DNA of 64,000 nt, from NCBI GenBank assembly GCA_010405405.1, contig MU004231.1, positions 3,218,401 through 3,282,400 on the forward strand, in the 5' to 3' direction. The position numbers were made by a program, and so were the translations under genes. The notes beneath the pieces are model-generated. The model worked only from the letters and a program-made list of their open reading frames with translations. It searched no databases and was not told where the DNA came from. Position 1 is the stretch's first letter; each line of letters begins with the position of its first letter. This DNA is from Microthyrium microscopicum (lineage: Eukaryota). Shown one piece after another: positions 31,332 to 59,439 of the stretch.

Positions 31332-32637
<1,306 letters not shown>

Positions 32638-37763: not shown

Positions 37764-38990
37764 ATGAACGAACAAATGGCTGGATCGCAGGATTCAAACG
37801 ACTCCCCAGATTCAAGTATAGTCGCCGTCGCCACACATACCAATCCGAGCAGATCGCTAATGTTAGATCTAGCCTGTCATGAGTCGTTTCGACTCGCGGA
37901 TCTTCCCCTCGAGCTGCGCTGGGAAATCTACTCATATTGCGACAATAACACTCTGGCGGCTCTTCGAAACTCAAGCCGGCAGCTTCGTATGGAGACTGAA
38001 GAAGAAGCTTTCACTAAGCGACTCGTTGTCATCAACACTGCCTCTATCGAGGCTTATCTGCAGGAAAAGCTACATGGGAGAATTGCCTTTTGTGACCAGC
38101 AAGACTACAGAACTTTCGACAGATACAAAGCCTTGGACCCTGGACCAGAGATGACTGACAAAAACATTGCCGTCGACCTTGCTATCGCCCGTAAAGTCAA
38201 GTCACTGCTGTATCTGTCTCCAATATGTTTTCATTGTCGTCCCGGGGATATTTGCGCGGCATGTTTCACGCGATTGTACGTCATTTGCCGAAGACTATTT
38301 CCGAGCCTGGAGCAATTCAGAGTCATCGCCATATATGAGTCTTATGGGATGAGCTACGTCCACAACCGACTTCCACGGTCGCTTCCAGGCTTACCCGAAA
38401 GAATGGCTAAACACTACCATCATCCAGCAAAGATGACTTTCACTCAATACGAGTATTCTCCTGATATTATACGCAAGATTGGGGACAAATACTGTCTTCA
38501 AGAAACATTGTCAGATGAAGAAGAACGTGCGATTCGAGACTATACTCTTCAATTCGGATTTCTTGCGAAAGAAGCTCGGCAAGCGTATGCTGGGAAAGAG
38601 CTATACCTCAGATCCCAGGTTGCGAGGTCTAAAATTGATTTCAACTTGACCGTCAGAACGATATCTGATGCGATTAAATTGCCACATCTTGCCAGACCTT
38701 GGGCATTAATTGCGACATCGATTGAGGCCGAACGTGTGAGACGCTGGCGGACAGTGAGGCACGCAGACAAGGCGAAAGAAGTCGAAGAGAACCGACAGAA
38801 GCAGTTACAGAAAGGAAAGCCCGGAATTATGAAAATGTCCATGATGAAAATCCAAAAGCTCCTCCATGAACGAGAGAGCGCAGAGCAGCATGCTCGTAGC
38901 CTTCGTCACGCGATCAAAAAAGAAATGCACTCTGACCCTGAGTTTCAAGAAAAGTTGCAAAAACAGTTGGATGATGCTTCTACTTATGGT
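37764..38990 (+). pseudogene. F-box-like tandem paralog B, 5' part; interrupted by the 20-kb element
   Basis: LADLPLELRWEIYSYC. Similarity to paralog A stops at ..KQLDDASTYG, exactly where the AT-rich block starts. Confidence 0.85.
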
Positions 38991-40399
38991 CTAGATTTAT
39001 CTTACTTAGTTAGACTAGCAGCAAAATTATGGCGTTTACTAGCGTATATAAGGATATACTCTAGCTAATTAGAGCTTATTCTACTCTCTCTAACTTTTTG
39101 CTATATAGTCTAAGAGACTCTTGTTTTATTTGTTAATATTTTAGCTTAACTTTTTAGCTTAATCTAAATATAATGGCGTCTTTTATAAAATAAGTATATA
39201 AATCTTAAAATTAGTTAAATTTAAGTTGTATAGAAGAAACTACGCTTTTAAATAAATATATTTTTAAGTTATCTATGCTTCTAGTTATTTTAGTAATATA
39301 ATTCCTATATGACTAAAAAAATTGCTAGCTTAGTTAACTTTTGCCCTTTTTTGCTTATTATTAACTATATAATAACGATATGATTTGATTACTTTAAAAT
39401 ATTACGTAGTGCTTTATAATTAGCTATTCTATTATCTTATATATTTATTTTTATTATAAAATAGTATAGTTATAGATTCCTATTTATCTTTTAGTTAATT
39501 GTATATTTAGTTAGACTAGGCCTTTTTTTTGCTAAGACTACTTGCTATAATCTATTCTGCTTACGTAAGTATCCTTGTAAGTTTTTATAAGTCTTTATAA
39601 GTCCTTAAATAGCCTATATTTATCCTTTATTACTCTTTTTAACTTTATTAGTATTCTTAGTAGTTATTTTTATACCTTTAGTAGTATATATAGCTTATAT
39701 TAGTATCCTTGCGTAATCTTTATAGTTCCTTACTTGTCCTTTGAATTAATTTAATAGCTTTAGTAATGTAGTAGCTTTAGTAAAGGGTTTATTTTAGTAT
39801 TCTAGTATTTTTATTGCGTTAGTATTTAGATAGCTTTAGTATTTTAATGCTAAGTAATTATATAAGAGTATTAGTAATATCTTTACTAGTCTTAGTATTA
39901 CTTTATTTAGTTAAAGAGGTTACTATAGTAATTTTATTATAGCTAAGAAATCTTATAAGTTTAAAGGTATAGCTCTTATTATCTTTACTTTATCTTTTAG
40001 ACTTAGTATTAGTATTCTTTATGGCTTTAGTGTCTTTAGTATCTTTAGTGTCTCTAATATCTCTAGTATCTTTAGTATCTTTAGTATCTTTAGTTTCTCT
40101 AGGTATCTAGCTTATATAAGCATCTCTATATATCTTAGTATAATCCTTATTTACTCTTAGTAGCTTATAGTAGCCCTTTTTGATTAGTAGGTATAATATA
40201 TAAGTTAGTAATTATTATTATTAAATATTAATTATTATAAATATATACCTTATTATTAATGCTAACCTTATTATTATAGTATTATAGGCTAGATAAAGAA
40301 TAAGTAAAATAATTACTAGTAATCTATAAAACTAAAACTAAGACTAAGACTACTATAATCTTAGTACTTATAATTACTATAATAGGACTAGCCTAATTA

Positions 40400-42700
40400 C
40401 CTACTCTTATAATTGCCTAAACCTTATCTTCTTTAGAAATCTAAGAGGTTACTTAAAGCTATACGTACTGCTTTATAACTAGGATTAGTTAATGCTATTT
40501 ACGCCCTTATATAATTTATTTAAATCTAGCTATTAGCTAAAATATAAGAGTATATATTATAGTTATGCTTATAGAAGTTAACTAGCTATAACCCTTATCC
40601 TAGATAGGTTAGGGCCTTAAGGTTTCTAATATATAAGAGCTATAATATCTTGCTTATTACTTATACTAGATAGAGTAAGAGTTTAATACTATATAACTTT
40701 TCTATATTAATAGAAAAGATTACTTTATAGCTAATTCCTATAAACTAATTAGGGGATAAATAATTTAATAGTATCTTAGCTATCTTTAGGTCTAAGCCTA
40801 TTATTGTTTATAGCGAGACAATAACCTAGTTAAAGGATATTGCTATTAATATTATGTTTAGTTAGTATACCTATATATTAATTTTACTAGAGACTACGTT
40901 TAGTAGGCTCTTTTGTAGTATGTTAAGCAATTTTATCTTTTAGAATAGGATTAGAATAGTTGCTATTAATAAATGCTACTTAGTTAAATAATAGTAGGAT
41001 TTTAGGTCTTAGTTTGCTATAATTTATAAGCTTTATATAATACTATACTAGGATATTATATAGTTTAGTTATACTAGCACCTTAAGTTTACTTATATAAT
41101 AGTTTATTCTTTATTATAGTAGATTCTAAGAAGAGGGACTATATAAATAATAAACTATTATTATATACTCCTTTATTAACCATTAGGATGTTATAATCTA
41201 GTTTAAGCCTATACTTAAGTAAAGGTTAGTATCTTTTAATAAACTCTATTAGATCTTAGATGCTATAGTTAACTCTAAGGCTAGGAAGGCTACTCTTAAG
41301 TTAATTAAAAAGACTATTATATATATTAATAGTAGATTAAAGATCTATACAATGTTAAAATACCTTTAGGCTACTTTAGTTAGTTTAACTAAGAACTTTC
41401 TAGAGGACTAGTAGTATACTTACTTTAATAAGGATAGCGTACGTTATATCTATAACCTTATTTAAGAAATTACTTTTATTATCCCTAGCTATAATAAGAT
41501 AGTTTGGTACTAAGAATTTAAGCTTCTAGGTTCACCTTGTTAAATTATAATTATAACTATAAGCCTAGGACTTAGTATTAATATATTAGATATTATATTA
41601 ATTATTATTTAGAGGTTCTTAATACTATATAGTTTTATAGATCTATGGTAGCGTATAGGTTATAGTAGGCGTAGTTATAGGTTATTTAGTATTGCTATAG
41701 TATTTCTTTCGTATTAAATATTTAATATATTTAGATAAGAATAACTTAATCTATAGAAAGGTATTTAGGTAAGTTTACTAACTATTTAATTTATCTAGGT
41801 TATATTTTCTTTATATAGGACTTAAAATTATACGCTACTTTAATATTAATAACTTTGTATTTAGGATAGGGCTAGTTTAAGTATATTGTAGCTTAAATTG
41901 CTATTTAATAATAGTAATATTAAAAGTAAAGCTAGTACTGCCTTATAAGTATTTACTATTATATTTATTACTTCTTAAGTATTAGTTATAGATATATAAG
42001 AAGCTAATATATTACTAGATAGTATACCTAGTTTAATTCCTCTATTTTAGTTTAGAGTTAAGGTTAAAACTTATAGTAGAGTCTTACGTAAATAGTTTAT
42101 TATTATAAATTATTTAGACTATTTTTAAGAAGCTATCCTCTATGAGCTAGATAAATTCCTGCCCTAGATAATAGATTATAATTCTATACTAATTTTAAGG
42201 TATTATAATAAATACTATCTAGATAAGTTTTGTAAATTAGTTTAGTTAGTGTTTTTACTACGTAAGTAGGCTTTAAATAAGAATAGTTGTAAGGCTATTA
42301 TAAGAACGTAATTATAGGTCTAGTCCTTAGTAGTAAAAGAAGCTATGTGTCTAGAGGATAATTATAAGAGTAAATATTCTTAAGGTAAAGACTAGTTGCT
42401 AGATAATGATTTGATTAGGTAGCTAGCTTATCTTTACGCTACTAAATTTCCTTTTAATACTTAGTATTTTACTTAAGATAAATTATATATACGTATTTTT
42501 AATTTAGTTAATTAGACTAATACTATTATGTTAAAGGGAAAGCTATTATTTATCCTTTAAAAGCTAGAAACTATTATTAAGTAGTTATATAAGGATGCCT
42601 ATAAGGCTAATTATTTAGTACGCCTTATGGCTAAGGAAGTAAAGCTCTTAAAGAAAATATAAGTTATAGCGTTATAGTTAGAGTCTTAGTTATAGTTACT
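40400..42700 (+). pseudogene. RIP-destroyed RecQ-like SF2 (DExH) helicase; boundaries approximate
   Basis: Literal translation, with de-RIP reading after '=': LLITYTR*SKSLI = LLIARTGWGKSLI (motif I, ~40650-40690). KITL*LIPIN*LGDK* is motif Ia. VAINKCYLVK**=VAIDECHLVKQW (motif II, ~40960). C*IIIITISLGLSINILDI = CRIMVAT.SLGLGIDIPDI (motif V, ~41540-41595). DLW*RIGYSRR = DLWQRIGRGGR (motif VI, ~41640-41675). YYNKYY = CCNKCH (Zn region, ~42200). Confidence 0.85.
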
Positions 42701-43869
42701 TATATCGTCTTAAACTAGTAATCTTTAGCGCTAGGTTCTTAAGAAACTAATAGATAATGAGTTAATATAAGAAAGGGCTTATAGAGTATAAGAGGAAGAT
42801 AAAAGGGTTTATTTGTTTATAAGTTAGCTAATTAGATATATGTTTATCCTTATTAGTTTATTTAGAGGTTCTATGTTAATAAATATTCTAACCTTACTAT
42901 TTACTAAGTATTAGTAGGATATTACGAATTTAGATAATAGTAATATCCTAGATAAATATAAGGGATTTATAAATACTAATTCTAAAGATAATAAAGAAGA
43001 TATAGACGATAATTTATTTAATTAGCTAATACCTATATTAAATAAAGATAGTATTACTCTAGTTACTACTCCTTATACTTATTACTTAACTTATACTTAA
43101 TAAAAGAGTTATTTGCTAAGCTAAGACTTATTAAGCTAGTTAATACTACGTTATTATTAGATTAGGGCTAGTATAAAATAGTCCTTACCTATAATCTTAG
43201 AGAGAAATAGTTTAACTACTACTATTAGGAGGACTATAAGAAAGAGTATAAAAGAGTATTCTTCTTAACTAACGAGAAGAGGATTAAAGATAAGTAAGAA
43301 GATGTTGCGTTTAATATTAGAGTAGGTTAGACCTAGTGTATAATTCTAAATATTTAGTTTTTTAACTATTTTATCTACTTAGGTATTATAAGGAACTATA
43401 TAGGATTATATAGGATTCTAAGGAGTAGGTAGGTATAGTTATATAAGCACTATATTTTATATTTTTAGTTTAGAGGTTTATAAATATTAGTATTTAGAGT
43501 TCTTATCTATTATAGGCGTTATGTTCTTCTATATATATTTATAGTATATTATATTTATTAGTTTGTTATAACTACTTTGTTTATTTATTATTATTATAGT
43601 ATCTTTAGTAAATAGATATCTAAGCATTAAGCCCTATTACGAAGCCTATATATTATAATATACATTATAAAGGAGGCTCTTTATAAGTATAATAATAAGG
43701 ATGAATTTACTAGTCTATATAAGATTAGTAAGTATATTAAAGTATTCCTAAGACGTAATAGGATATTACTATAAGTATTAGTAAAACTTAGATAGTGTCC
43801 TAACTTAGATCTATTTAAATATAGTATATATATTTCTAGGTAGGAAAGCTATTTTAGCGCTTAACTTCT

Positions 43870-43995
43870 CTATATTGCTTAGTATTATAATGATGCTTAG
43901 CTTCTTTACGTTGCTTAGTATTGCTATAACGCTTAGCTTCTTTACGTTACTTAGTATTACTATAGCGCTTTGCCTCTTTATGTTACTTAGTGTTG
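43870..43995. repeat. 36-bp tandem repeat (~3.5 copies) inside the element
   Basis: Units resemble TTGCTTAGTATTGCTATAACGCTTAGCTTCTTTACG. The minus strand reads RKEAKR-like 12-aa units. Confidence 0.75.
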
Positions 43996-46900
43996 CTTAC
44001 TTACTAGTTTCATTAAGTAATAGAAACTAGACACTATAATAAGAACTAGATATTAGAAAATCTAATAGTAAGTAGACTTTACTTAGCTAAGGCTTATACT
44101 TTAATCCCTTATACGTAAAGCTAATATGGCTAATTGTTAATAGCTTAAGTACTTTACTTTTTAACGTTATAGGTAAAGACGTAAAGTTAAGTAGGTTTAT
44201 TAGAAATTAGTATTAAGAAATATTTAGTATCTTGCTATTTAACTACTTAGAAGGTATAGTTTGTGTACTAGCCTTTAAGAGCCTATTAATTATTCTTAGT
44301 TATGAAAATAGTAATTAAGTTATATTAAGAGATATAGCTATAGTTAAGGTACTACCTAAAGAATAATACAGTTTAGAGTATAGAGTTAATATCACTAGTA
44401 GTATTAAATCTACGCTAAACTTTAGTAGATTAATTATTAGGCATATTAACATTATTAGGCGCGCTAACATTACTATATATTAGAAAGTACTAGTAGTAGG
44501 TATTTTTATTATCTATTTTATTCTTTAGCAGTATACCTTACTCTTTAATAAAGACTTTCTTACGAATTATTATAATATTAATAAACTTTTATAGGACTCT
44601 ATATTATTAATTTAGTAGGATAGAGCAATTATAGTTCTATAAAGCTAGTTTATGTTCTAGCGTTAGCCTAAAGTAGATAATAAACTTAGTTACTCTAATA
44701 CTTATTAAGGAATATTAGAAGGAATATAATATAGATAGCTAAATAGCTTATTGCCTTCTACTATTAGTAACTTGTTATATTATAGTAGTTCTTTATTAAG
44801 AACCTTTCTTATGTATATTTTCTTAATATTGTTACTACTTTACTAAATCTTTATTATAAGGATAGAGAGGAGTTTTATTAGACTCTCTTTAAAGGTAGCA
44901 TATCTATTTAGATTAAAATTATTAAGTTATATAGGAATAGTATATATTATTAGCGTAAAGAGTTAGTCTTTAAGCTAGTAGTTATTTAAAGTTATAAAGA
45001 TTATAATTTTGATATAGTGTTTAGTCTAAAAGATAATACTATATAAATCTATATTAGCGTTTTATAACGTATTAATAAATAAAATATTATATAATACGTC
45101 TATTTTACTAGTCTAGGTAGAGGCTAGGTTAAGTAAGGATAATATAGTAAGCCTAGGTATTCCTTTTTAGGTAATTAATACGTTAGTAGAATATATCTAA
45201 TAGATTTTTTTACTAGATATAATATACTCTTTACTCGTTACTATTCTAGTTATACTTTATAACTAAATAGTATATATATAATAAGTATAAACTATATAGT
45301 AACTTTTGCTATATATTTAACTATTTATAACCCTTTATAATTAATTAAGGCTACTAATATTATAATCTTATTATCTTAATTAGGTAGTAGTAAGAACTTT
45401 ATAAAGTGCTACCTATTATGTCTACTACCTAAATGGTATATCCCTTATTATACTAGATATATTCTTTTCTCTTCTTTATCTTTATATACCTTTAGGTCTT
45501 CTTTTAAGCAGTTTTCTTTATACTTAACTAGATTACTTTTAAGAAGGTATAGCCTTAGGTCTTTGTTATACCTTTTTAATATAACTTTTAGGCTATTAAT
45601 ACTTTTTATATACTAACTAATTCTATTCTATTTCTTTTATTAGATAAGGGCCTTATAGAAATATAATAAGCTAATTAGGTATTACTAAATTAAGTAATTA
45701 TAACTATTTAATAGCTAATACTCTTAGTTAGACTAAGTATTTAAAATAGTAAGACTATTATATTATAGTCTTTTTAAAGCCTTTATGCCCTTTAGCTTTT
45801 AAACTTTAACTTCTTAACTTTATAACTTTATATACTTACGTCTTTTGCTATCTTTAAAAGAAAGATGTACTCTTAATACTATCCTATACTTAACGTATAT
45901 ATTATCTTTACTTATTAGCTATCTAATAGTCTCTTGCTATCCTAGCTTATTAAGGAGGTAAAGTTAATTCCTTATAGCGTACTACGCTAAAAAGGTAAAT
46001 ATATTTATCTAGAGAGTAGAATTTCTAGTTATATTATAAAGCGTTATAACTTTAATAATTTATAAGTTCTAGTATATTGCTTATAGATATTAGTAGTAAT
46101 AATTATAGTTAGTAAGTTAAGTTTAATGCTTGCTAGGCTACTTACTAAGCTTGTTTAGCTATACTTATTAAGTAAGAAGAGAGTCCCCTTTTTGTTTTAG
46201 CTTCTCTTATATTTAGCTCGCCTAAGCTATCTCTTTCCTTAAGTTTGCCTTTTAATTTTAGTAATAATAAGCTAATAGACGATAATAACGATAATAATAA
46301 TAAAGACGAAGAAGACGATAAGACTTTCATTAATCCTAATCTTCTCTCTCCTCTCGCTCTTATCCTTACTAAGGCTAAGTATAACGTGCTTATATAAAAA
46401 TTTAACTTTAGCTTAATAGCTAGAATTAACCTTAGCTAGCTACGTTTTATAGCGATAAAGCTAAGTCTAGACGTAAAGCGCTCTACTATACTTAATAAAT
46501 AATAGTCTTAGACTACTAAGAAGTAGGACGTCTTAATATTTTAAAAAAAAAAAACTATATAGTAATATTAGCTATATAATAAAGATGACTTTTAGTAAAC
46601 GCATATTAGATATTGCTACGTATTTAGCGTATATTAAGTATAGGTAAGAATATTAGTAGTTTATATAGAAAGTAAAGAATACATAGAAGAATTTTAGAAG
46701 TTATTATACTTATTATGTTATATTTCTTAAAGACTATACCTTTAGAGATAATTATTATAAATTTAAAGGTAAAGTTATAGAGTATAAGACTTTAGGTAAA
46801 TTATTTAGTTTATAAACTAGTTAAAAGATAGAGGTTTAGGAAGTAGTAGTTTAGAGTAGGTAATTAGTATAGAATAGCGTATTAACGTATACTTCTCATA

Positions 46901-49900
46901 ATGATAGTAATTACTTAAGTATTTAGTGTCTTATGCTTCCTTTACGATTATATTATTTAATTAAGTTCTATAAGAAGTAAGTAGGAGTTGCTTTGAAAGC
47001 TATGAGTATCTTATAAGATATATATTATAAGGATTATAGGCATGTTTAGTATTCTTTAATATCTTTATAATTATATCGTTTAATTAGGTTCTATAAGAAG
47101 TAAGTAGGAGTTGCTCTAAAAGCTACAAGTATTCTATAAGGCGTGCGTTATAAGCGTTATAAGTATATAGTAATATATTATAGTTGTTTAAATTAATTAT
47201 ATTGGGTGTATTAATAATATTATTCTTATCGTCTTATTATCTATTATATGCGTTATAATATAAACGTTAATATTAGTAAATAGTTAGTTATAAATAGGTA
47301 AAGTTAGAAAATATACAATGTCTATATAGCTAATATATGCTTTACAGAACTATAGGATATGCTAGCCTAAAATAAGTAGTTTAGTATTTTATTAGACTTT
47401 ATAACTAGTTAGGTATTAGAAGGGTATATTTAGTAGGATATAGGATATCTAGAGATAATTAGGTAATGTTAAGAATCCTAAAGGATGTTAATTTTAGGAC
47501 TAGCTATTATTACTATACTCTTATAATTAAAATAATATAAACTTATAAGCTAATAATCTAATTTATTAACTTAATTTGCTATACTATCTTTTACCTTATT
47601 CTTTTAATTTAATAGTTATCCTAGTATACTAAGCTATTATATTGCATTATCTTTAGTTTGTCTATTTATCTTGCTACTAAAACCTATATTCTTATTAATT
47701 ATAGCTCTACTAATACTAGAACGCTATCTGCTTTATTCTTTAAAGGTATTTAAAGAATAATAATAGATAGCTTATATTCTTTTTTAGCTTTAGTACTAGC
47801 TTTTAATAGGCTATATTAAATAGAAACTACCTTTACTATTATACTTACTAATGTACGTATATATTAGCCTTTATTATATATATTTAGGCTATGCTATTAA
47901 ACAAAAGGATAGGAACGTTAAATTATTAAGGGATAGTTATTAGTTTAATTAATAGAGAAACTAAAAAGGTAACTTAATAGTAAAAGCGTAAGGTTATAGT
48001 AAGTATTATTACTCTTAATATAGTAGCGAGTAATAGCTAAATTAGTATAAATATATATAGTATATAGTTTAACGCTAGAGGGTAATTTACTATATTATAT
48101 CTATATAGTAATATTTTAGCTATACTTAGCTAGTAATGATTAGTTCTACTATTTAGTAATAATAGTAGGTATAAATATTTAGGCTAAAAAAATATATATT
48201 ATTATTAATAAATAAGATAGCTTAGAATAATATAAGGCTAAGAAATAGGTAGAATAGTTTAGTAATAATGGTAGGTATAAATATCTAGGCTAAAAGAATA
48301 TATATTATTACTAATAAATAAGATAGCTTAGAATAATATAAGGCTAAGAGATAGGTAGAATAAGATAAGTTTATATCTTATAAGTATTTATAATAAGTAT
48401 TAAAATATAAATATTATAATCCTTTAAGCACTTTATAAAGGCTTAATTGAGGTATGTACTCTTATTGCTAAACTATAGTATACGAACTTTATAATTAAAC
48501 TAGACTATTATAATTCTTAAGGAGTAGAAGGGCTAGACTATATAGTTTTTAAGGAGAGGAAGGGCTAGACTATGTAGTTCTTAAGGAGTAGAAGGATCTT
48601 TAGTAAAAGATGCTAATATTAACTTAGGTTATTAGGTTATTATTAGTAACATTGACTTTAAAGTCTATAACTAAATATTCTTTAGGATAATAGTAAATAT
48701 TTATTATGCGTAGCTAGTAAATATTTATTAGACTATAAATACTTTATAGTATAATTGTTAGGTTCTAAACGTAGTAGAGTCTATAAATATATAGTGCTAT
48801 AGAGTTTTTGTAGATATTAATATATATTAATTAAATATTATTACTATATTTAGTATTTAAATGTTATAGTATCTTTAGATAGCTTTATTAGATAACTTTT
48901 AAGCTATATAGGACCTAAGTAGCTACTTATACTAGAGACTTATAAGTTTAAGGCCTTCTACTTAATTAGGATTATAAAAGTAAAGTTCTTATATTTATTA
49001 ATTAGAGTTACGCCTTTTTTAATAAGGTTCTAGGGTTAGGATAAAGTAATTATATAATTAGCAAAATATATTAATTAATATTAAGTTAGTAGGTAGATAT
49101 CTACTTAGAATAAAGCTAAAATTATTTTAGCTTATACTTATTGCTCTTAAGTCTTATCTACTAGTATTATATTTATCTATATAGGTTATTTTTAATAGGC
49201 TATAGGAATAACGTATCTTTTTATAAAATATTCTAGTAATAAATAGTTTTGTCTTTAGAGTATAAAAGGAGATATTTACCGTTAGGATAAAATATTAGTA
49301 TATAAATCTAGTTATTATAGCTAATAAGTATTTTAATTAGTGTTTCTCTACTATCCTAAAGCTTAATAAGCTTATTATAACTAATAGTAAGAATTTAGGT
49401 AAGCTAACTATATAAGGTTATAAGAATTAGGCTTAAGGTAGTAAATAGTAGTAGATATTAGTAGTTAGTAAAGTTTAGAATATAGAGAGTTAAGTAACTT
49501 AGAGATTTTGCTATAAAATATTAGAGATTATAGTTAGATTATAATAATATAAGTATACTTACTCTGCCTTGCTTTACTTATACGTACCTTACTTTGCCTA
49601 AATATAGCTAAATGCTTTATAATTAATCTTTTTAGGGTTAGTCTATATTAAACGTTGTTTACTAAGATTATAGATACTTAAAGTTTAATTATTAGCTTTT
49701 TATAAATTCTACTTAAGGGATTATTAGCCTATAATAAGTAGGTATAGAATATAGCCTAAAGACGCTATATATTCTAAGTAAGGCCTTTCTATTTATATTA
49801 AGATAGCTATATATTATCTACTAATAAAATAAAGAGTTATAAGTAATTTAGTAAGCTATTACTAGTTTATATACTTAATTATATACTAAGTAGCTATCTA

Positions 49901-51417
49901 CTAGATAAGGTTACTTTATAAGTAGTACTTAGTTTATATTAATAACTATATAAGTTTATAATATTAAAGAAAAGGTTAAGTCTAAATAGTTTCTTAAATA
50001 TGGCATTAAGATGCCTAGGCTACTTATTTATAATTAATAGGCTATATATATATTATCTAATAAAAATTAGAAGATATTATATAGATTACTATAATATAGT
50101 TCTTAAGCTCTCTATTAGTTAAAATATAAAGGTTAGTTGCTAAATATTAACGTAAGATAATAGAGTAGTATTATCTTAAGTCGCTATAAAGAAGTAAAGA
50201 TATTAATTAGATTAAGTAGATAGGTCTTAATATAATAAGTAAAGAATGCATCTATAAGATGAACTTAATAGTTTAATAATAGGAAGTAAAGAAAATATAA
50301 GTTAGATTAAGTTAATGTAATTTATACCTTAATTGCTATATATTTAGTAGATATTTAAAATAGAGTATTTTTTAGAGGTATAAACTAATAGGATAACTAA
50401 CTATATATAGGTATAATATAAGTATACTTACTTATCCTATTGTATTCCTATCTATATTATAGCTAATTATTATTTAAAGTTTACTTATACTAGTTTATAT
50501 GCTACTACTATTTAGGATTATATTTTATTTATATATTTCTTAAATAATATAATCTTATACTATATATATATACTTTAGTATAGAGATTTAGTTTGACTTA
50601 TATATCTTAATTATTAACCTATACTATAATATACTACTATTATTTACCTTATTGCTACTCTACTTATTTATCTAATAGCTTATTTTAAATATAACGCTAT
50701 CTAATTATTATTCTAAGTAGTTAAATGTATACTATAAAACTATACTAGAATATACTAATTAAAGCTTAATTTTCTATTGCTCTATTTATCTATTGCGCTA
50801 ACTTAAAGTAATATCTATAATATTATTCTAAGTAAGGAAGATTAATACTATATACGTTAAGCTATACTAATAGTGTAAAAGAATAATATAAGGAAGATAA
50901 GTTAATATTAATATTAATATAAACTCTTATATTTAAGATACTAGTCCTATTAACTAAGTTTATAAGATCTTACCTATTACTATAAGCCTAGAAGGAAGTA
51001 CTTATTTATTATGTCTACTTTTAATATTATAACGGAAGGTTAAAGGCTTGCTTCTAATTTTAATTATCTTATAATAACTTTTTTATAATAAATAGCTAGT
51101 AGTTATACTTATATACTATCTTCTTATCTAAAGCTAAATAAGGCATATAGTAGTAGGTACTTAATGCTAACTACTTTGTTTTATACTTCTTTATAAGTTA
51201 GATATAGGAATAAGTTTGCTAAATTAATAGGAAGGAGAGGAAGAGAAGGGGGTTATACTCTAAGTATTATAAGAGACTAGATTAATATTTAGTTTTATAA
51301 TATAAGCTTTAAGAACAATCGTAGCTACTAAATGTAATAGATACATTAAGCTAATTTAGTAGTTGCCTAATACTAATATAATTAACTAATTAATACTTCT
51401 AGTAGCTTCTTTCTTAT

Positions 51418-51720
51418 TTATAATAGCTATATTTAGATAGGCTATAACTAAAGCTATTATAGTTGCTAATGTAAGTACCTTTTCTATAATAGCTATACTT
51501 AGATAGGCTATAACTAAAGCTATTATAGTTGCTAGTGTAAGTACCTTCTTTATAATAGCTATACTTAGATAGGCTATAATTAAAGCTATTATAGTTGCTA
51601 GTATAAGTATCTTCTCTATAATAGCTATATCTAGATAGGTTATAACTAAAGCTATTATAGTTGCTAATATAAGTACCTTCTTTATAATAGTCGTACCTAG
51701 ATAGGCTATAATAAAAGCTA
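51418..51720. repeat. 66-bp tandem repeat (~4.6 copies) inside the element
   Basis: The unit starts TAATAG at 51421, 51487, 51553, 51619 and 51685. Confidence 0.9.
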
Positions 51721-51852
51721 TAATAAAGGTATTACTAAAAGTAGTAAAGTAAGCTAGCTTACCTTAAGGGTATTAATCTTAAGTACTAGGAGCTATAGAG
51801 GAGTACGCATAATATTATAGTAAGCGCTTCTAAACTTATATAGGTTTCTATA

Positions 51853-52085
51853 CTATTAATTTAGTAGGATAAAGTAATTATAGTTCTATTAAGTTAGTTT
51901 ATGCTCTAGCGTTAGCCTAAAGTAGGTAATAGACTCTATGCTATTAGTTTAGTAGGATAGAGTAATTATAGTTCTATAGAGCTTATTTATACTCTAGCGT
52001 TAGCCTAAAGTAGGTAGTAAACTCTATGCTATTAATTTAGTAAGATAGAGTAATTATAGTTCTATAGAGCTTATTTATGCTTTAG
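51853..52085. repeat. 88-bp tandem repeat (~2.7 copies), with a further copy at ~44603-44685
   Basis: CTATTA(A/G)TTTAGTA..TATAGTTCTAT..CTAGCGTTAGCCTAAAGTAG starts at 51853, 51941 and 52029 (last copy partial) and recurs at 44603. Confidence 0.85.
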
Positions 52086-55000
52086 TAAAGGCGCTATAAG
52101 TAGATAGTATAAAGGAAAAAGAAGAAGAGAAAGATAAATAAAGGAAGAAAGATATTTATATTCTATAGACCTTTAAGAATTTCTCTTTAAGTAAGTTTAA
52201 ACCTAATATTATAAGGGTAGTGTTAATCTTTTTAGGAAGTAGCTAGGATATGCTTATAATAGACTTTTAAGAAATACTACTACTATTAACGTGCTAGGCT
52301 TAGGCTAAAATATTAAGGCTATTAGCGTACTTTAGTACTACTAATATTAAAGCTATTAGCGTATTAAGGTAGTTAAGTCCTTAAACTTAAGGAAGTAATA
52401 GTAGTAAAAGAACTATTAAAGACTAGAAGACTAAATAGTAATTAAAAGTAGTAAGAAGTATTGCTAGCGTACTTTATTAGTAATATTAAGGCTATTAGCG
52501 TATTAGAGTAGTTAAGTCCTTAAACTTAAGGAAGTAATAGTAGTAAAAGAATTATTAAAGACTAGAAGACTAGATAGTAACTAAAAGTAGTAAGAAGTAT
52601 CGTTAGTGTGCTTTACTACTAATGCTAAGGCTATTAGCGTACTAAAGAAGAAGGAAAGAAGAAGAGGAAGAAGAGGGAGGGTTAAAGGATTACTATATTT
52701 TTATTACTAATCTTCTAATTAATTTGGTATGTTCTTTCTAAGGATTACTATACTCTTATTATTAATCTTTTATCTTAATCTAGTAGAGCTAAAGCTTAAG
52801 ATAGTAAAGTACTTAGACTTACTAGGAAAACTTGCTCTTTATATTCTTTTTAAGGATTACTATACCCTTATTATTAATCTTCTAACTAATGTGGTATTCT
52901 TTATACGCTTTATAGCTAGAGTACTTGTATTATAATATTAAATTTATTGTCTTATAGAACGTAAGCTTCTATTTTAACTAGGTAGATATAGTTCTTAAAT
53001 CTATTATTTTAATAGAACGTAAGCTTCTATTTTAACTAGGTATTCTTAAATTTGCTATCTCATAGAATGTAAGCTTTTATTTTAACTAGGAGGTTATTCT
53101 TACTACTAATAATGCTACTTATATAGGTATACTTACTGAAACCTATTAATATCTGTATATCTATATATATTCTAATATATAGGTTATAAATAGAAGGAAT
53201 TACTACTAAGGTATTTAATTAAAATGATAGTAAATATTGCCTACATTACTTATAATAGGGGACATTATCTATCTTAAAAAGCTAAGAGTAGCTACTAGTA
53301 GTAAAAAGACTTGTAAGATAGTATAGTAAGCTTATCCTTCTAAGTAAGATAGCTAATTTAGCGCCTAGATATTCCTAGCGTCTAAAAGGCTTATAGAATC
53401 CCTAATAGTTATTAATACTTATTATAACGTGTAGTATTAAGAAGGTATTCTTTATAACCTACTCTTTTAAGTGAGATAGTTAACTTATACGCTTATTAAT
53501 TCTTATATGCTAGCGTAATTTATAGTACTACTCCTTTTTAATTAAAGCTTTGCTACGATTAGAAGGTATCCTTAGTAAATCTACCCTTCTAAATAAGATA
53601 GCTAATTTAGTATCTAGATGATCTTGCTGCCTAGAAGGCTTATAGAAATTCGTACGTTTATTAATACTTGTATGTTAGTATAACTTATAATACTACTTAT
53701 TCTTAATAGAATCTTGCTACGCTTAAATTTGTACTTATCGTTAAGTTGCTTTAAGACGTATATAAAAAGCGTTCTAGTCTTATAAGGTTACTATTAAATA
53801 TTAAAATCTTACCTCCTAAATAAGGCTTGAATACTTAAACTTTAACTATCTTTTTTTAGTATAGTATAGAGTAAGGACTTTAGTTGGCTAATTATTATTA
53901 TTATTAATAGTAAAAATTATATCTATAATAATATAGAGAGTATTAAGTACTATAAAAGCGTTCTATTTAGGCTTTAGTAGGTTATTAGTGTTATTATTAC
54001 TATTTAGTACTTAAACCCTTCTCTTTTAAATTAGATAAGAGTACTTAAACTTTAACTACTTTTATTTAGTGTAGTATAGAGTTAGTAGGTGTATAGGCTA
54101 TTAATATTATTATTACTATTTAGTACTTAAATCCTTTCTTCTTAGATTAGATAAGAGCTTCTAATATAGGAGTAGTATTTAATAAACTATTTATGAAAGT
54201 AAGTCTTTCTATATATTTTCTTATGTATTCCTACTAATAGAAATAGCTAATATAAATAATTGTAGACAACTTAGGTAATAAAGACTTATAAGCCTTTAAT
54301 GCTACTTACGTAGGTTAACTTCTAGTTAGTTATCTATAGAACCTTATTATTATTAAGATAAGAGTAGCTATTATAGAGAGTATAGTACTTATTATTAATA
54401 ATATATATGTAAAAGAAATCTAGTATATAAGTATACTATTTAAGATTTATAGAACTATTAGTATTAAAGACTAGTGCTTAGGTAATTATTATATAGATAA
54501 ACTTTTAGAACTTTAGAAATTTATAGATAGAGCAATTAGTAAACTAGTTAAGGCTAAGAAGATATAGTGCTAAGTAAAGGATTATAGTATAGTAGTCTTA
54601 CTTAATATTATATATAGTAAAAGAATTAGTAGTAGGGTAGTTAGATATCTAATAAGTACTTAAACTTTAACTACCTTCTTTTAGTATGGTATAGAATAAG
54701 GACTTTAGCGTGTCTTAGTTATAATATATAATACTAAAGGTAAGTAAGTCTAAAGTAATAGGATAGTTATAGTTTATAACTTAGTTAGCGTCATAATACT
54801 TACTACTAATAATATTAAAGATAAGTAAGTTTAGAATAATTAGATAAATGCTAGTATTATAATATAGTTAGTATTATAATACTTACTACTAATTATATTA
54901 AAGGTAAGTAGATTAGGAGGAAGGTAATAAATCTTATTTACTATATTGTTAGTATTGCTATACTTCTTATAAAGGATAATACTTAATATAATAGAAATAC

Positions 55001-55399
55001 GTAAGGAGTTACTTAGATTGGCTTAAAGGTTAGTAAGAGAGACTTAGATATTATATTTAGGCTTAGTAAGACTAAGCTTAAATTGGCTTAAAGGTTAGTA
55101 AGAGAGATTTAGATATTATATTTAGGCTTAATAAGACTAGGCTTAGATTAGCTTATAGGTTAATAAGATAGATAAGATTAGTATTTATTATAGTACTATA
55201 TCTATATTACTTATAGATAAATAAATATTTAAAACTAATTAGATTAGAATAGGTTTATGAATAGGAAGGGTAAAGGTAGTTATAGGTAGGGTAATGTAAG
55301 TTATAAGAGCTCTTTAGAAGTTAAGGTAATCCCTAAGTTGTAAACTAAAAATAACGAATTACTAACTATACTTATTAATACTTAGTTAGCCTAATAAGC

Positions 55400-58300
55400 C
55401 TCTAAATAACTCTTTGCTAATAAGTAAATAGATTTAATAAATTAAGTCCTTTTATTATAATAAATATATATAATTAAATTAACTTAAAAGTTTAGGTTAA
55501 AGTTTATTACTATCTCTAAAGTTACTAAACTTATCTTTCTCTTTAGTATCCTAAGCCTAGGTATAATTTACTACTATACTAGTATTAAACTTTAGCTTAA
55601 CGTCTCTACTACCTTTAAGTATTATATATGCTTAACTTAGAATTACTATATGTTTTTTATTAAACGCTTTTACCTTACTAGTAAGCATTATAGCCCTAAG
55701 TGTTTATATATTTTAAGAGTTGTAATTATTTCCTTTAATTTAGATAGCCTTTAGAAACTAACGCTCTATAAAATTGCCTTAAATTAAAGTATTATATATT
55801 ATATTAATGTTATGCTTTATAGTAGTAATACTTCTTGTACTAGATATATATTTACTAAATGAGCCCTTTAGTATAGCTTTTAACTTTCTGCTATAACTAT
55901 TTATAAGGTATATATAATTAAAAGTAATATGAATATTATGGGTTGAATTCTTTTAGGTCTTTATGTCTAGTTTTGTACTACTATTTATATATTCTAAGCT
56001 TAAATCTATAGCCTTATAACTATGTAGTTTACTAAGCTAGTTAACTAGGCTAGAAGCTAGTATAGCGCGTTATAACTTTAGTTTATTAATAGTATCTAGT
56101 ATATTCTACTTAAGCTATATTATCTTATTACTATAATTATTAGAACTAGACTTATAGAACTAATATATTATAGGATTAATTAGCTAATAAAGTAAACTAA
56201 CGTCTATATATTTAATAGCGTGTTTTAGTATTAATAATAGGTAGATCTTTTATATATATTAATATAATGTCTAGAACTAAATATTAACGTCCTTTAGTAT
56301 TATTGTACTACTTTCTTTGTTTTTATATAAACTAGTCTAACCTTCTACTTAATATATAAGAATTTGAATGTCCTAGATAATTTTAATTACTTAATTTACT
56401 ATTAACGTTTTAATAATGTCTCTTATAATTGTATTATCTACTAGTACGTTAGAAGTTATATTTAGAGGGTAGTGTTTATAATAGCGTAAAGTAAGCTTAA
56501 ATAAGGCTAAGTTTTAAGTATTAAATACTTATTATAGAATAGGTTCTAGCTTATGTAACTAAATAGACTAGCGTATTTTATTCTTTAGATAACCTTAAGT
56601 AGTAATATTATGCTTAATAGAATATAGAGTATGCTTATAGTAGTTAATAGGTCCTTAATAGCTTTTTATAATGTTTTCTCTAAGGCACTTTTAAGTATAG
56701 AACTACCTAATAACTAGATAAAGCTACTCCTTTCTATTAAAGGCTAGAGATAAATAAGATTGCTTAGATTTAATAGCTTAATTATTCTTTATACTAAGTT
56801 AATTTCTATATATAAGAAATAAGTAGTAGGCAAATATATAAGGTTTACTTATTAGGAAGTTAGTTAGCTACTAATATTAGTAGAAGTTTATACTTAATAT
56901 ATCTATTTTATCTAAGCTATATTTTAGAAACTTAAGTACGTTTATAAAGATCTTATAATATATATTATATATACTATTTATAGTACCCTTATTTTTAAAT
57001 ATACTAGCAAGCTATTAATATTTAGTTTTAATTAGGGGAAGTTAATTAAGTTATAATTATACTAATTTCTTCTTCTTATCTTTCTTATTACTAAATATCT
57101 CCTTAAGTTAAGTCTTAAAGGTAACTTAGAGACTTTAATATATTAAGACTTCCTTAATAGCATTAGCTATAGGTTTACTAATTATGTATTCTTTATAAAG
57201 AAGTAAGTTTATAATTAAGCGTAAAGGTAATTTATATATTAGATTATATATATCTTAAGTTAAACTACTAGGTAGATAATAAGAATATCTAACTATAGTA
57301 GCTATAGTTAGATTTTTTATAATATAACTATAGCTAATCCTCTTATTTTGAACTTAATCTTTGTAGTTAAAGTTATTATATATAAGCGCTAACTAAGGAT
57401 TATAGGCTAAGGTAGTAAGCTATTTTTATAAATATATAAGCGTAAGGTTGTAAACTAACTATAAGATACTAAAGGCTACTAAGGATAGTTATAGAATATA
57501 TAGAGATGCTTATATAAGTATTCTAGTGTTTATATTTTGTAGACTATAGATATTAGGAGGCCTATACGATAAGTAAGGGCTTATAAGAAGGAGTAAGGAT
57601 AGATATAAGATATATAGGAATGCTTATATAAGCATTCTAGCGTCTATATTTTGCTAGAGGAGTAATACTAGAAGGGTCTTATAGCGATATATAAGCTATT
57701 ATAAGAGGTAATAAGGGATAATAAGGGTTATAATAATACTAGAATAGGGTATTTTATTAGTAAAAACTTAGTAAGCTAATCTATAACCTATACTATATAG
57801 TAATACTTGTAGTAAATACTAAGTATACTAAAAGTCTATATTACTTTCTTTTTAACGCTAGCGTAATAAAGATATATACTTAGAAGTATTAATATTATAT
57901 TAGACTTTTAGTAATTCTAATGGCTATATACTATAGTAGTAATAAGAAATATAATTAGATTATTAGTATTTATAGACTATATTTTATAAGAACTTTAATA
58001 GCTTCTACTATGCTATATAATATTATAATAAAAAGTAACTTATTAAGGAGCTAGAAGTAATAGACGCTTTATACTTGTTAGAAAGTTAATTAAATTAGGA
58101 TTCTTTTTGTAGTTAAACTGCCTAAACTATAGCGTTCTTAGAAGTTATTATAACTTAGTTATAAAGCTATTAGGATGATAATTACCCTAGATCTAATTTA
58201 TAGAGTAGTAAGTACTAAGTATATTACTTAAAGTAGACTAACGACTCTTAAGAATTAAATAGTATTAGTATTATAGAGTAATAGTATAATGTTAGTTATC

Positions 58301-58500
58301 TATATTTACCTAAGTATCTAAGAATTTAGGAAAAGTTTAAGAGATTAAGTATAAATAAGAGAGTATAGATTCTAGTTTTAACTTAGTAGTAAGTCGTAAG
58401 CTATGCTATTAAGGTAATAGATAGTAATTATTATCTTTATCTTAATTGCTATCCTCTTTTTTTGTACTTAATGCGCTACTAGACTAATAGGGCGTAGAGA
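55400..58500 (-). pseudogene. RIP-destroyed DUF6589/Academ-type transposase; boundaries approximate
   Basis: Minus-strand literal translation, with de-RIP reading after '=': IYNNFNYKD = IYDNFNYKD (~57380). FKNKGT = FENEGT. IYRN*LS = IHGDQLS (~56800). FNRKE*LYLVIR*FY = FDRKEWLHPVIGWFH (~56720). LKHAIKYIDVSLL = LKHAIK.ADVGLL (~56220). L*RAILASSLVN = LQRAILASGLVN. AIDLSLEYIN = AIDLSLEHIN (~55995). Confidence 0.8.
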
Positions 58501-59085
58501 GAAGAATTGGAGGTAGGCTAGAGAGTCTTAGTACTAGTAATGTATTCTTTATTAATAAGAGAGGCGATATAGTAATAGGAGGTAGGGTTGATTGTCTTTT
58601 TAATTAAAACTATTGCTCTAGACGCGTAGGAAGAGTCCTTAGTTATTAGTTTAAGGGCCTAAGTAAACTAATAGAAATAGGGCTATAATAAGGCTAATGC
58701 TTAGACCTAGTATAGCGCTTTTAAGTAAATATAGTAAATTTAAATAATAGAGAAAAATAAGGTAAGTAAAGTGATATAAAAATAAATATAAATATATATA
58801 TAGTTATAGAGATAATATAATTTAAAAAGTGCGTATTCTTTTATATAAAGTTAATAGGGCCCTTACTAAAATAGAATAAGAGTTACTTAGATATAGTAAG
58901 CTGCTTTAAAATTACATATGTCCTAAAATATCTAATTAGCTAAGGGTAAGCTAGGTTCTATATAGAATAGCTAAGGATACTTAGTCAGTAAGAGCTAAAG
59001 GCTCTCTAACTAAGTAGGGAGCTAAAGGCAACTTGTTTTTAAAGTAGCTTGCTACGTCTAAGAAACTAAGATAAGTCTAGATAGT

Positions 59086-59439
59086 GTAGGTCTAAGAATC
59101 TAGTCCTATCATTACCATGACTTGAAACAATATCCTACAGCGAATGACTTGATCACCATGATTTTGGAAGGTAGACCAAATATTATCCTTGACAAGGACA
59201 TAAAACTACAGCAATCCACCATGTTGGCCCAGACACAAAATCTCGATAAAGAGAGAGATATGGGACATGAGTACGATTGGGTAGAGTCAGAAAGTCGATG
59301 GATCTTGAGAATTGAAGTCCGATCCACAGCATCTGGTTATTTTCAGCTCAATGGGGATGGCCCTACCCTCCGTATGAAATGGCATGCTCCCATTCATTCC
59401 GATATCCGCCCTCGAACTTTGGAACGACAAGAAGTGTGA
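59086..59439 (+). pseudogene. F-box-like tandem paralog B, displaced 3' part
   Basis: SYHYHDLKQYPTANDLITMIL...HEYDWVESESRWILR aligns with the paralog A C-terminus PYHHY...AATNLINMVL...DYGWSQTEQRWFMR. It is in frame with the 5' part once the element and one TSD copy are removed. Confidence 0.85.

What the first reader, a model, noticed from the sequence alone, without database searches (positions are those of the whole stretch)
38986..59085. The 20-kb AT-rich block is one giant helicase-plus-transposase TIR transposon with a 5-bp TSD
Seen in sequence: matching ~25-30 bp terminal inverted repeats, and ATGGT/ATAGT flanks that differ by one RIP-type TG>TA change. A RecQ-like helicase relic (+) is near the left end and a DUF6589-type transposase relic (-) near the right, converging on ~12 kb of other sequence. 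Established knowledge: an Academ-type transposase paired with a RecQ-like SF2 helicase defines AcademH elements; from memory these are reported with 9-10 bp TSDs, and the DUF6589-Academ link is also from memory. Inference: this may be a large cargo-carrying ascomycete relative with a different TSD length. I found no tyrosine-recombinase captain, so it does not look like a Starship. Ordinary annotation would miss it because RIP removed its long ORFs.
Basis: partly seen in the sequence, partly recalled or inferred. Interest (0 to 1): 0.92.

Follow-up and report, generated by a model that had tools for sequence, protein, structure and literature searches.

The report
RIP-killed AcademH-type helicase transposon
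The 20-kb AT-rich block is one dead DNA transposon, carrying a transposase and a RecQ-like helicase, that landed inside a fungal gene and was then destroyed by the fungus's own repeat-mutation defence; it fits a transposon family that is already known.

Summary
The AT-rich block is real and sharply bounded, with GC 0.20-0.27 against 0.42-0.53 in the flanks. It is uniformly RIP-mutated (CpA observed/expected 0.08) and ends in imperfect terminal inverted repeats (21/25).

It sits inside an F-box-like gene whose reading frame is restored when the block is removed.

A DUF6589 gene relic lies on the minus strand at about 58660-55500. Its Pfam E-value is 1e-12 and its best database relative scores 4.6e-48.

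Pfam, PDB and plain HMM searches miss the RecQ-like helicase relic. A RIP-aware profile alignment finds it at 40629-41672 (+) with all core motifs in order. It scores 54 bits against a null of 17±2, and 0 of 400 shuffles reach that.

Five conserved DUF6589 blocks match the published Academ RNase H profile in order and spacing. The element therefore has the AcademH layout of an Academ transposase plus a helicase.

The 5-bp TSD is not secure. A perfect 8-bp direct repeat, GTCTAGAT, spans the same junctions and is 1.4-7 times more likely. It lies close to the 9-10 bp reported for AcademH.

No cargo gene was detected in the roughly 14-kb interior, which is rich in tandem arrays.

Verdict: a new, dead member of a known kind, of modest interest.

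The parts
38991..39015 (+). Left terminal inverted repeat (5-bp-TSD reading). Under the 8-bp reading the element starts at 38997.
   Evidence: Matches the reverse complement of 59056-59080 at 21/25; best of 3721 offset pairs. Sequence seen.
59056..59080 (-). Right terminal inverted repeat (5-bp-TSD reading). Under the 8-bp reading the element ends at 59074.
38986..38990 (.). Candidate 5-bp TSD, left copy (ATGGT).
   Evidence: The right copy, ATAGT, differs by one TpG>TpA change.
59081..59085 (.). Candidate 5-bp TSD, right copy (ATAGT).
38989..38996 (.). Alternative 8-bp TSD, left copy (GTCTAGAT). A 9-bp version runs from 38988 and matches 8/9.
   Evidence: Likelihood comparison.
59075..59082 (.). 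Alternative 8-bp TSD, right copy (GTCTAGAT).
40629..41672 (+). Core of the RecQ-like SF2 helicase relic. Motifs I, Ia, II with the DFRP stretch, III, IV, V and VI are present. It holds many RIP-made stops.
   Evidence: RIP-aware alignment to a RecQ HMM built from 60 bacterial RecQ ORFs scores 54.0 bits over HMM positions 33-325. 0 of 400 codon shuffles reached that score (maximum 24.6). 40 column-permuted profiles gave a maximum of 35.9.
57752..58660 (-). N-terminal part of the transposase-like gene relic, in the minus frame of 59080. It matches the N-terminal ~300 aa of the long DUF6589 proteins.
   Evidence: RIP-aware pairwise scores of 40-91 bits for 6 of 6 long homologues, against reversed-sequence controls of 24-36.
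55500..57548 (-). DUF6589 (Academ-type DDE core) part of the transposase relic, in the minus frame of 59078.
   Evidence: Pfam PF20231 at E=1e-12 over 55863-57167. phmmer found 154 relatives, the best at 4.6e-48. All tblastn HSPs fall within 55590-57419. RIP-aware scores are 132-343 bits.
40110..40171 (.). Short inverted repeat, left copy.
   Evidence: 61 nt, 80% complementary to 57458-57518, and 55 nt to 57579-57633. A longer extension is not significant.
57458..57633 (.). Short inverted repeat, two right copies at a 114-bp period. They lie where the transposase relic changes frame.
41673..55499 (.). Interior of about 13.8 kb with no recognised gene. It holds about ten tandem arrays with periods of 32-139 bp, for example at 51419-51725, 51847-52085 and 52323-52647.
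   Evidence: for the arrays. Searches found no LTR-like repeat, including in purine/pyrimidine space. One search found no Pfam hit. One search shows RIP as strong here as elsewhere in the element.
37689..38990 (+). Upstream part of the interrupted host gene, an F-box-like paralogue of 34946-36568.
59086..59439 (+). Downstream part of the interrupted host gene. It is in frame with the upstream part once the element is removed. An in-frame TAG lies at 59101-59103.

Best explanation
This is a single dead copy of an AcademH-type cut-and-paste DNA transposon of about 20.08-20.09 kb.

When active, its DDE transposase (the Pfam DUF6589 domain, which corresponds to the Academ RNase H-like core) would bind the imperfect terminal inverted repeats. 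It would excise the element and insert it at staggered cuts, leaving a short target-site duplication, most likely 8-9 bp. A RecQ-like SF2 helicase, encoded at the other end on the other strand, would act as an accessory factor.

This copy inserted into the coding region of an F-box-like gene. Because the element was present in at least two copies during a sexual cycle, RIP converted nearly all of its CpA to TpA over the full length. That destroyed both genes and produced the AT-rich block.

Shown here: the boundaries, the TIRs, RIP, both gene relics, and the disruption of the host gene. Inferred: transposase activity, the role of the helicase, and the TSD length.
For: - Composition and RIP are confined to 38991-59080 and even across it. 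Each 2-kb bin holds CA 3-13 and TA 419-477, and no 200-nt window exceeds GC 0.35.
- The TIRs match at 21/25 at exactly those boundaries.
- Removing the element plus one repeat copy joins the two host ORF parts in frame. The joined protein aligns without a gap at the junction to the neighbouring paralogue (score 451).
- Nothing in the element is repeated elsewhere in the window, and it holds no LTR-like internal repeats.
- DUF6589 relic: Pfam 1e-12. It has 154 relatives, the best at 4.6e-48. It is a single locus that covers the homologues almost end to end.
- Helicase relic: 54.0 bits against a shuffle null of 17.1±2.1 and permuted profiles of 25.4±2.8 (maximum 35.9). The other five frames score 20-27. 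Motifs I-VI are collinear.
- Positive control: the same scoring raises the DUF6589 score from 156.7 to 321.8 bits.
- DUF6589 and Academ agree in five blocks. In each pair the Academ consensus comes first: fDNwD / YDNfN; vvltgDQpl / LwLvhGDQlT; WlvP....fFH / W.lP..aWFH; llS..g / ILaS...G; DealE....K / DLsLEHlN...K.
- Spacings also agree (Academ first): D1-D2 188 vs median 166; D2-H 32 vs 35; D2-E 263 vs 256.
- AcademH is defined by a helicase alongside the Academ transposase and is reported in Ascomycota (PMC10799480 and PMC10045372 passages).
Against: - The DUF6589-Academ match was made by eye against consensus letters read from 7 of about 19 parts of the published HMM. It is not a computed profile-profile score or a tree.
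- The helicase is invisible to every standard tool I tried. It rests on a scoring scheme I wrote myself.
- The reference profile is bacterial RecQ, not a transposon helicase.
- No other copy, empty site or fungal genome could be searched. That both genes belong to one mobile unit rests on this single locus.
- Neither candidate TSD (5 bp, or 8 bp perfect) falls in the reported 9-10 bp. The 9-bp reading needs one mismatch and puts the TIR tips one base out of register.
- No longer DUF6589 protein with a fused helicase was found (weak evidence either way).
- The AcademH paper itself (PMC7165386) is not held. Its criteria are taken second-hand.
Confidence: 0.7

Rival explanations
1. This is a distinct Academ-related lineage that makes 5-bp TSDs. 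The element is 38991-59080, with TIRs beginning CTAGA and the duplication ATGGT.
For: - The 5-mers flank the longest TIR alignment, which reaches 21/25 only if the CTAGAT/CTAGAC tips are counted.
- The single mismatch is a TpG>TpA change.
- RIP-type leakage into the flank is plausible. An in-frame TAG lies 16-18 bp downstream of the right 5-mer, at 59101-59103.
Against: - A perfect 8-bp direct repeat spans the same junctions.
- Under a true 5-bp TSD, such a shared 8-mer arises in 0.75% of simulations.
- The simple likelihood favours 8 bp by 1.4-7 times.
- 5 bp lies further from the AcademH range (9-10 bp) than 8 bp does, and also outside the AcademX range (3-4 bp).
Confidence: 0.17
2. The block is a composite RIP island. 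The DUF6589 transposon and the RecQ-like helicase come from different repeats, such as a KolobokH fragment or a telomere-linked-helicase-type repeat (this example is recalled). They nested or merged before RIP.
For: - The two relics lie about 14 kb apart on opposite strands with unexplained sequence between them.
- RecQ helicases also occur in fungal KolobokH elements (PMC9587614 passage).
- Pfam on RIP-damaged translations is insensitive, so other element proteins could be hidden (it missed the helicase).
Against: - There is one TIR pair, at the exact edges of the RIP block, with one insertion site that restores the host frame.
- No internal LTR-like or TIR-like pair appears, even in purine/pyrimidine space.
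- RIP is equally strong in all 2-kb bins.
- Kolobok hallmarks are absent: the TTAA TSD and the 5'-RR..YY-3' termini.
- The neighbourhood is ordinary housekeeping genes, not a chromosome end.
Confidence: 0.1
3. A Starship or another giant cargo element whose captain gene has been erased by RIP.
For: The size of about 20 kb, and a large interior of unknown content.
Against: - No DUF3435 or integrase hit appeared in any of the 12 six-frame pieces.
- The gene nearest each end is accounted for: the helicase on the left and the Academ-type transposase on the right.
- No cargo gene was detected.
Confidence: 0.02

Closest known systems
AcademH (the helicase-encoding lineage of the Academ superfamily; Kojima 2020. 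That paper is not held, so its features are taken from passages in PMC10045372 and PMC10799480.)
   Same: - TIR-bounded DNA transposon.
- A DDE transposase whose conserved blocks match the published Academ RNase H profile.
- A separate SF2 (DEAD/Helicase_C-type) helicase gene.
- Found in fungi, including Ascomycota.
   Different: - The TSD here reads as 8 bp perfect (or 8/9, or 5 bp at 4/5), against the reported 9-10 bp.
- This copy is fully RIP-mutated.
- It has a tandem-array-rich interior of about 14 kb between the two genes. Whether that length is unusual for the family could not be checked.
KolobokH (fungal Kolobok lineage with a RecQ helicase; PMC9587614 passages)
   Same: A fungal DDE transposon that carries a RecQ-type helicase.
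   Different: - Kolobok makes TTAA 4-bp TSDs and has 5'-RR..YY-3' termini.
- It has a C/DxxH motif, and its helicase lies downstream of the transposase domain.
- Here there is no TTAA, and the termini are CT..AG or TT..AA.
- The corresponding motif has A, S or V in place of C/D.
- The helicase is on the other strand, about 14 kb away.
Starship elements
   Same: A large fungal mobile element with short terminal repeats and a short direct repeat at the insertion site.
   Different: No tyrosine-recombinase captain was detected. A DDE-type transposase is present instead.
RIP-generated AT-rich blocks in Pezizomycotina genomes
   Same: CpA>TpA bias, a high TpA/ApT ratio, sharp edges at the repeat boundary, and all ORFs lost.
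   Different: Nothing. This is textbook RIP acting on one element.

Membership tests
AcademH | Transposase of the Academ superfamily (RNase H-like DDE core) | tested here: met
   The DUF6589 consensus was compared by eye with consensus letters of RNase_H_Academ.hmm in the supplement of PMC5751038. I read HMM positions 1-40, 169-245 and 424-465. Five blocks agree in order. Spacings are similar. This is not a computed score.
AcademH | A helicase encoded in addition to the transposase | tested here: met
   RecQ-like SF2 core at 40629-41672 (+). It scores 54.0 bits in RIP-aware alignment, and 0 of 400 shuffles reached that score. Standard searches were negative.
AcademH | 9-10-bp target-site duplication (PMC10045372 passage) | tested here: inconclusive
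   Only one copy is available. The candidates are 8/8 (GTCTAGAT), 8/9 for 9 bp, or 4/5 for 5 bp.
AcademH | Phylogenetic placement with AcademH rather than AcademX transposases | not testable with these tools
   No Repbase Academ sequences are available, and the defining paper is not held.
KolobokH | TTAA-specific 4-bp TSD | tested here: not met
   The flanks are ATGGT/ATAGT or GTCTAGAT. There is no TTAA at either junction.
KolobokH | Termini 5'-RR ... YY-3' | tested here: not met
   The termini are 5'-CT...AG-3', or 5'-TT...AA-3' under the 8-bp reading.
KolobokH | [quoted passage not shown] | tested here: not met
   The helicase is on the opposite strand, about 14 kb from the transposase relic. 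22 of 22 scanned homologues and 72 of 72 listed homologues carry PF20231 only. No longer fused form was found (weak evidence).
KolobokH | [quoted passage not shown] | tested here: not met
   In the DUF6589 alignment, the residue three positions before the conserved H is A, S or V in the 14 sequences displayed.
Starship | DUF3435 tyrosine-recombinase 'captain' near one end | tested here: not met
   No such Pfam hit in any of the 12 six-frame pieces. Sensitivity on RIP-damaged sequence is low. Both end-proximal genes are otherwise identified.
RIP-affected repeat | CpA>TpA transition bias with raised TpA/ApT and lowered (CpA+TpG)/(ApC+GpT) | tested here: met
   1.69 and 0.21 in the element, against 0.70-0.72 and 1.25-1.30 in the flanks. 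CpA observed/expected is 0.08.

The most novel reading that the evidence does not exclude
This is an undescribed ascomycete branch of Academ. Its helicase and transposase genes sit at opposite ends and read inward. They enclose a tandem-array core of about 14 kb that is carried along as part of the mobile unit. The element duplicates 5 bp (or 8 bp) rather than 9-10 bp on insertion. That would mean TSD length is not fixed by the presence of the helicase.
Probability: 0.15. Interest if true: 0.5.

Novelty: new member of a known kind. Interest (0 to 1): 0.3.

Why it matters
- **A function for DUF6589.** It ties Pfam DUF6589, listed as 'unknown function', to the Academ transposase core. Homologues in Histoplasma, Verruconis, Clathrospora, Setomelanomma and Eremomyces are named hypothetical proteins. 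My full-text searches for DUF6589, PF20231 and IPR046496 found no paper that makes this link. Many fungal 'hypothetical proteins' could therefore be relabelled as transposon-derived.
- **A method point.** A domain relic that Pfam, PDB and plain HMM searches all miss can be recovered by scoring profiles against the possible pre-RIP codons. The same scoring doubled the score of the known relic.
- **Local biology.** The finding is ordinary: a transposon knocked out one of two tandem F-box-like paralogues and was then inactivated by RIP.

Tried and rejected
- **Pfam on all frames in one call.** I redid it through translate and protein ids.
- **Stop-density scan.** It did not separate coding frames.
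- **'Hard-stop' scan.** Counting stops that RIP cannot explain was also uninformative, with only 2-17 per frame.
- **First RIP-aware scoring.** Taking the best possible ancestral residue was too permissive: every window scored 130-196. I replaced it with a likelihood-ratio form.
- **Helicase by standard tools.** All negative: Pfam, PDB phmmer, word-indexed homologue search with 3087 candidates and none at E<=1, and plain hmmsearch --max.
- **DUF6589 against solved structures.** Profiles A1 and A2 gave no meaningful hit.
- **DUF6589 against other Pfam families.** At E<=5, 29 of 29 members match only PF20231, apart from single stray hits.
- **ESM Atlas.** The best score was 0.85, to unnamed clusters. 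Uninformative.
- **Structure prediction and fold search.** Not obtained. The tool was not accepting jobs. The one accepted job was interrupted.
- **The listing of cluster members.** Switched off.
- **Long subterminal inverted repeats.** A loose blastn of the two ends gave only composition noise. The transition-tolerant alignment around the 61-nt repeat scored 95 against a null maximum of 101, so only the short core is real.
- **tRNA and Rfam scans of the window.** Nothing found.
- **Papers not held.** Kojima 2020 and Yuan & Wessler 2011.
- **Supplements of PMC10799480.** They mention neither DUF6589 nor Academ.

Full report
**What is in the sequence**

The window has one sharply bounded AT-rich block. 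Every 1-kb bin from 39001 to 59000 has GC 0.20-0.27, while the rest of the window has 0.42-0.53.

Reading the junctions places the edges as follows:
- ATGGT at 38986-38990;
- the block at 38991-59080;
- ATAGT at 59081-59085.

The first 25 bases match the reverse complement of the last 25 at 21/25, or 22/25 if transitions are allowed. This is the best of 3721 offset pairs tried around the composition boundary. Only 1 of 2,000,000 random 25-mer pairs drawn from the block reached 21 or more. The terminal inverted repeats are therefore real.

**RIP**

The block carries the classic RIP signature:
- CpA observed/expected 0.08, TpG 0.29 and TpA 1.52;
- TpA/ApT 1.69 and (CpA+TpG)/(ApC+GpT) 0.21;
- flanks at 0.70-0.72 and 1.25-1.30.

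The signature is even. Each of the ten 2-kb bins has 3-13 CpA and 419-477 TpA, and no 200-nt window exceeds GC 0.35. RIP acts on duplicated DNA (established knowledge). The whole 20 kb, interior included, must therefore once have existed in at least two copies.

No part of the block is repeated elsewhere in the 64-kb window.

**Insertion site**

An ORF at 37689-38990 (+) runs straight into the left edge. An ORF beginning at 59086 (+) continues it.

With the block and one flanking repeat removed, the two parts join in frame. The joined protein aligns, with no gap at the junction, to the upstream tandem paralogue at 34946-36568 (score 451). That paralogue has an F-box.

An in-frame TAG at 59101-59103 and the ATGGT>ATAGT difference are both changes of the kind RIP makes. 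They may reflect leakage into the flank.

The neighbourhood is ordinary fungal housekeeping genes. No tRNA or Rfam family occurs in the window.

**Transposase relic**

Six-frame translations with stops read as X gave one Pfam hit among 12 pieces. It was DUF6589 (PF20231) at E=1e-12, covering profile positions 19-399 of 410, on the minus strand at 55863-57167.

A phmmer search of the relic against 1.84 billion representative proteins found 154 proteins at E<=1e-3, 69 at <=1e-10 and 7 at <=1e-30. The best scored 4.6e-48 at 27% identity.

Homologues carry nothing but DUF6589:
- 22 of 22 scanned carry only PF20231.
- 72 of 72 relatives of P0014 are listed with PF20231 only. The named ones are 'hypothetical' or 'DUF6589 domain-containing' proteins of Histoplasma, Verruconis, Clathrospora, Setomelanomma and Eremomyces.

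tblastn maps every HSP to a single locus:
- 31 HSPs from 28 proteins;
- 82 HSPs from 70 proteins;
- all fall within 55590-57419 on the minus strand.

RIP-aware pairwise alignment (described below) shows that the N-terminal ~300 residues of the long homologues also match. That match lies in another minus frame at 58660-57752. Six of six long homologues scored 40-91 bits, against reversed controls of 24-36.

The gene relic is therefore about 3.1 kb. It starts about 420 bp from the right end and reads inward. It changes frame near 57750-57550, which could be an intron or an indel.

**Helicase relic**

Standard tools do not see a helicase:
- Pfam: 0 of 12 pieces.
- PDB phmmer.
- Word-indexed homologue search: none of 3087 candidates at E<=1.
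- Plain hmmsearch --max with a RecQ HMM.

I built that RecQ HMM from 60 bacterial RecQ ORFs. These came from 120 loci fetched by a motif scan.

By eye, one plus frame showed RecQ-like motifs with RIP-type substitutions. I therefore scored the profile against a posterior over possible pre-RIP codons: each TpA may derive from CpA or TpG. The score is a likelihood ratio in which the null model passes through the same channel.

Results:
- Positive control: the DUF6589 relic rises from 156.7 to 321.8 bits.
- With the RecQ profile, one alignment stands out at 54.0 bits. It spans 40629-41672 (+) and HMM positions 33-325.
- Codon shuffles gave 17.1±2.1, with a maximum of 24.6. 0 of 400 reached the observed score.
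- The reversed profile gave 19.7.
- Over the whole element, the other five frames scored 20-27.
- 40 column-permuted profiles gave 25.4±2.8, with a maximum of 35.9.

The traceback shows motifs I, Ia, II followed by the RecQ-typical DFRP stretch, III, IV, V and VI in order.

The evidence rests on a purpose-built method and a bacterial reference profile.

**Is DUF6589 an Academ transposase?**

Full-text searches for DUF6589, PF20231 and IPR046496 found no paper that calls it a transposase. One preprint merely lists the domain.

PMC5751038 states that Academ RNase H-like domains matched no Pfam family in 2017. Its Supplementary File S1 prints an Academ HMM of 465 positions. I read positions 1-40, 169-245 and 424-465 and compared the consensus letters with the DUF6589 alignments.

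| Block | Academ HMM consensus | DUF6589 consensus |
|---|---|---|
| First D | fDNwD | YDNfN |
| Second D | r.vvltgDQpl | rLwLvhGDQlT |
| W-P-H | WlvP....fFH | W.lP..aWFH |
| S..g | llS..g | ILaS...G |
| D...E | DealE....K | DLsLEHlN...K |

| Spacing | Academ HMM | DUF6589 median |
|---|---|---|
| D1-D2 | 188 | 166 |
| D2-H | 32 | 35 |
| D2-E | 263 | 256 |

In one search the motifs were found as follows: GDQ in 66 of 80 sequences; the DN motif upstream in 23 of those 66 (many gene models are N-terminally short); [FWY]H in 65 of 66; D...E in 58 of 66.

I take this as good evidence that DUF6589 is the Academ core. It remains a comparison by eye, not a computed score.

**Which family**

AcademH is described as the Academ lineage that also encodes a helicase. 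It makes 9-10-bp TSDs, against 3-4 bp for AcademX (passage in PMC10045372). It is reported from Basidiomycota, Ascomycota and Mucoromycota (passage in PMC10799480). The defining paper is not held.

The other fungal DDE lineage with a RecQ helicase is KolobokH. Kolobok has TTAA TSDs, 5'-RR..YY-3' termini and a C/DxxH motif, and in KolobokH the helicase lies downstream of the transposase domain (PMC9587614 passages). None of these is met here.

No tyrosine-recombinase domain was found, which argues against a Starship, though sensitivity is low.

**The TSD**

The tip of the repeat contains the palindrome TCTAGA. As a result, the junctions also hold a perfect 8-bp direct repeat, GTCTAGAT, at 38989-38996 and 59075-59082. 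Under this reading the element is 38997-59074 and its TIRs begin TTATCTTA on both sides (16/19). A 9-bp version matches 8/9.

Both the 5-bp and the 8-bp reading restore the host frame. The 8-bp reading adds three codons.

In a simple likelihood comparison, the 8-bp reading is favoured 1.4-7 fold, depending on how likely RIP leakage is taken to be. A true 5-bp TSD produces such a shared 8-mer in 0.75% of simulations.

One copy cannot settle this. The claim of a TSD length unlike AcademH is therefore unsupported.

**Interior**

About 13.8 kb lies between the helicase core and the end of the transposase relic.
- It holds about ten tandem arrays with periods of 32-139 bp.
- A solo copy of the 88-bp unit lies at 44582-44686.
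- There is no LTR-like or TIR-like pair, even in purine/pyrimidine space where RIP changes are invisible.
- It gives no Pfam hit.

Because Pfam missed the helicase, hidden genes cannot be excluded. No cargo has been shown.

**What stayed unchecked**

- Other copies and empty sites.
- A fold for DUF6589.
- Cluster names.
- The original AcademH and Yuan-Wessler papers.

**Verdict**

This is a RIP-inactivated copy of an AcademH-type transposon inserted in an F-box-like gene. It is a new member of a known kind.

Its main by-products are a functional label for DUF6589 and a demonstration that RIP-aware profile scoring recovers relics that standard searches miss.

Noticed in passing
window 34946-36568 and 37689-38990 + 59086-59439: Two tandem F-box-like paralogues. 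The second is split by the element and also has an in-frame TAG at 59101-59103, 16-18 bp outside the right 5-mer. A RIP-type change spilling into the flank would explain that stop.
   Followed up: partly
window 40110-40171 vs 57458-57518 and 57579-57633: A core of about 60 nt is present once, 1.1 kb from the left end. It appears twice in inverted orientation (114-bp period), 1.45-1.6 kb from the right end, exactly where the transposase relic changes frame. A longer extension is not significant. Its function is unknown.
   Followed up: partly
window 44582-44686 vs 51847-52085: A solo copy of the 88-bp tandem-array unit, at about 90% identity, lies 7.2 kb upstream of the array.
   Followed up: no
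window 38991-59080: RIP is strand-asymmetric. 57 CpA survive against 320 TpG, and the plus strand has G 13.8% against C 10.0%.
   Followed up: no
window 58660-57752 (-); proteins P0202, P0203, P0013: Long DUF6589 proteins (880-1062 aa) share an N-terminal region of about 300 residues with no Pfam family. The relic also has it. Many database gene models of 550-670 aa probably lack this part or the first catalytic block.
   Followed up: partly
window 40009-40108: Eleven copies of a 9-bp unit (TTAGTATCT) lie just upstream of the 60-nt repeat and the helicase relic.
   Followed up: no
window 12583-13989, 24308-25102, 28872-29681, 31529-32467, 61077-62054, 62332-63402: The flanking genes are ordinary: Na/Ca exchanger, 6-phosphogluconolactonase-type, ubiquitin-conjugating enzyme, galactose-1-phosphate uridylyltransferase, carnosine N-methyltransferase-like, and GDT1. 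The element therefore sits in a gene-rich region, not a repeat-rich one.
   Followed up: yes
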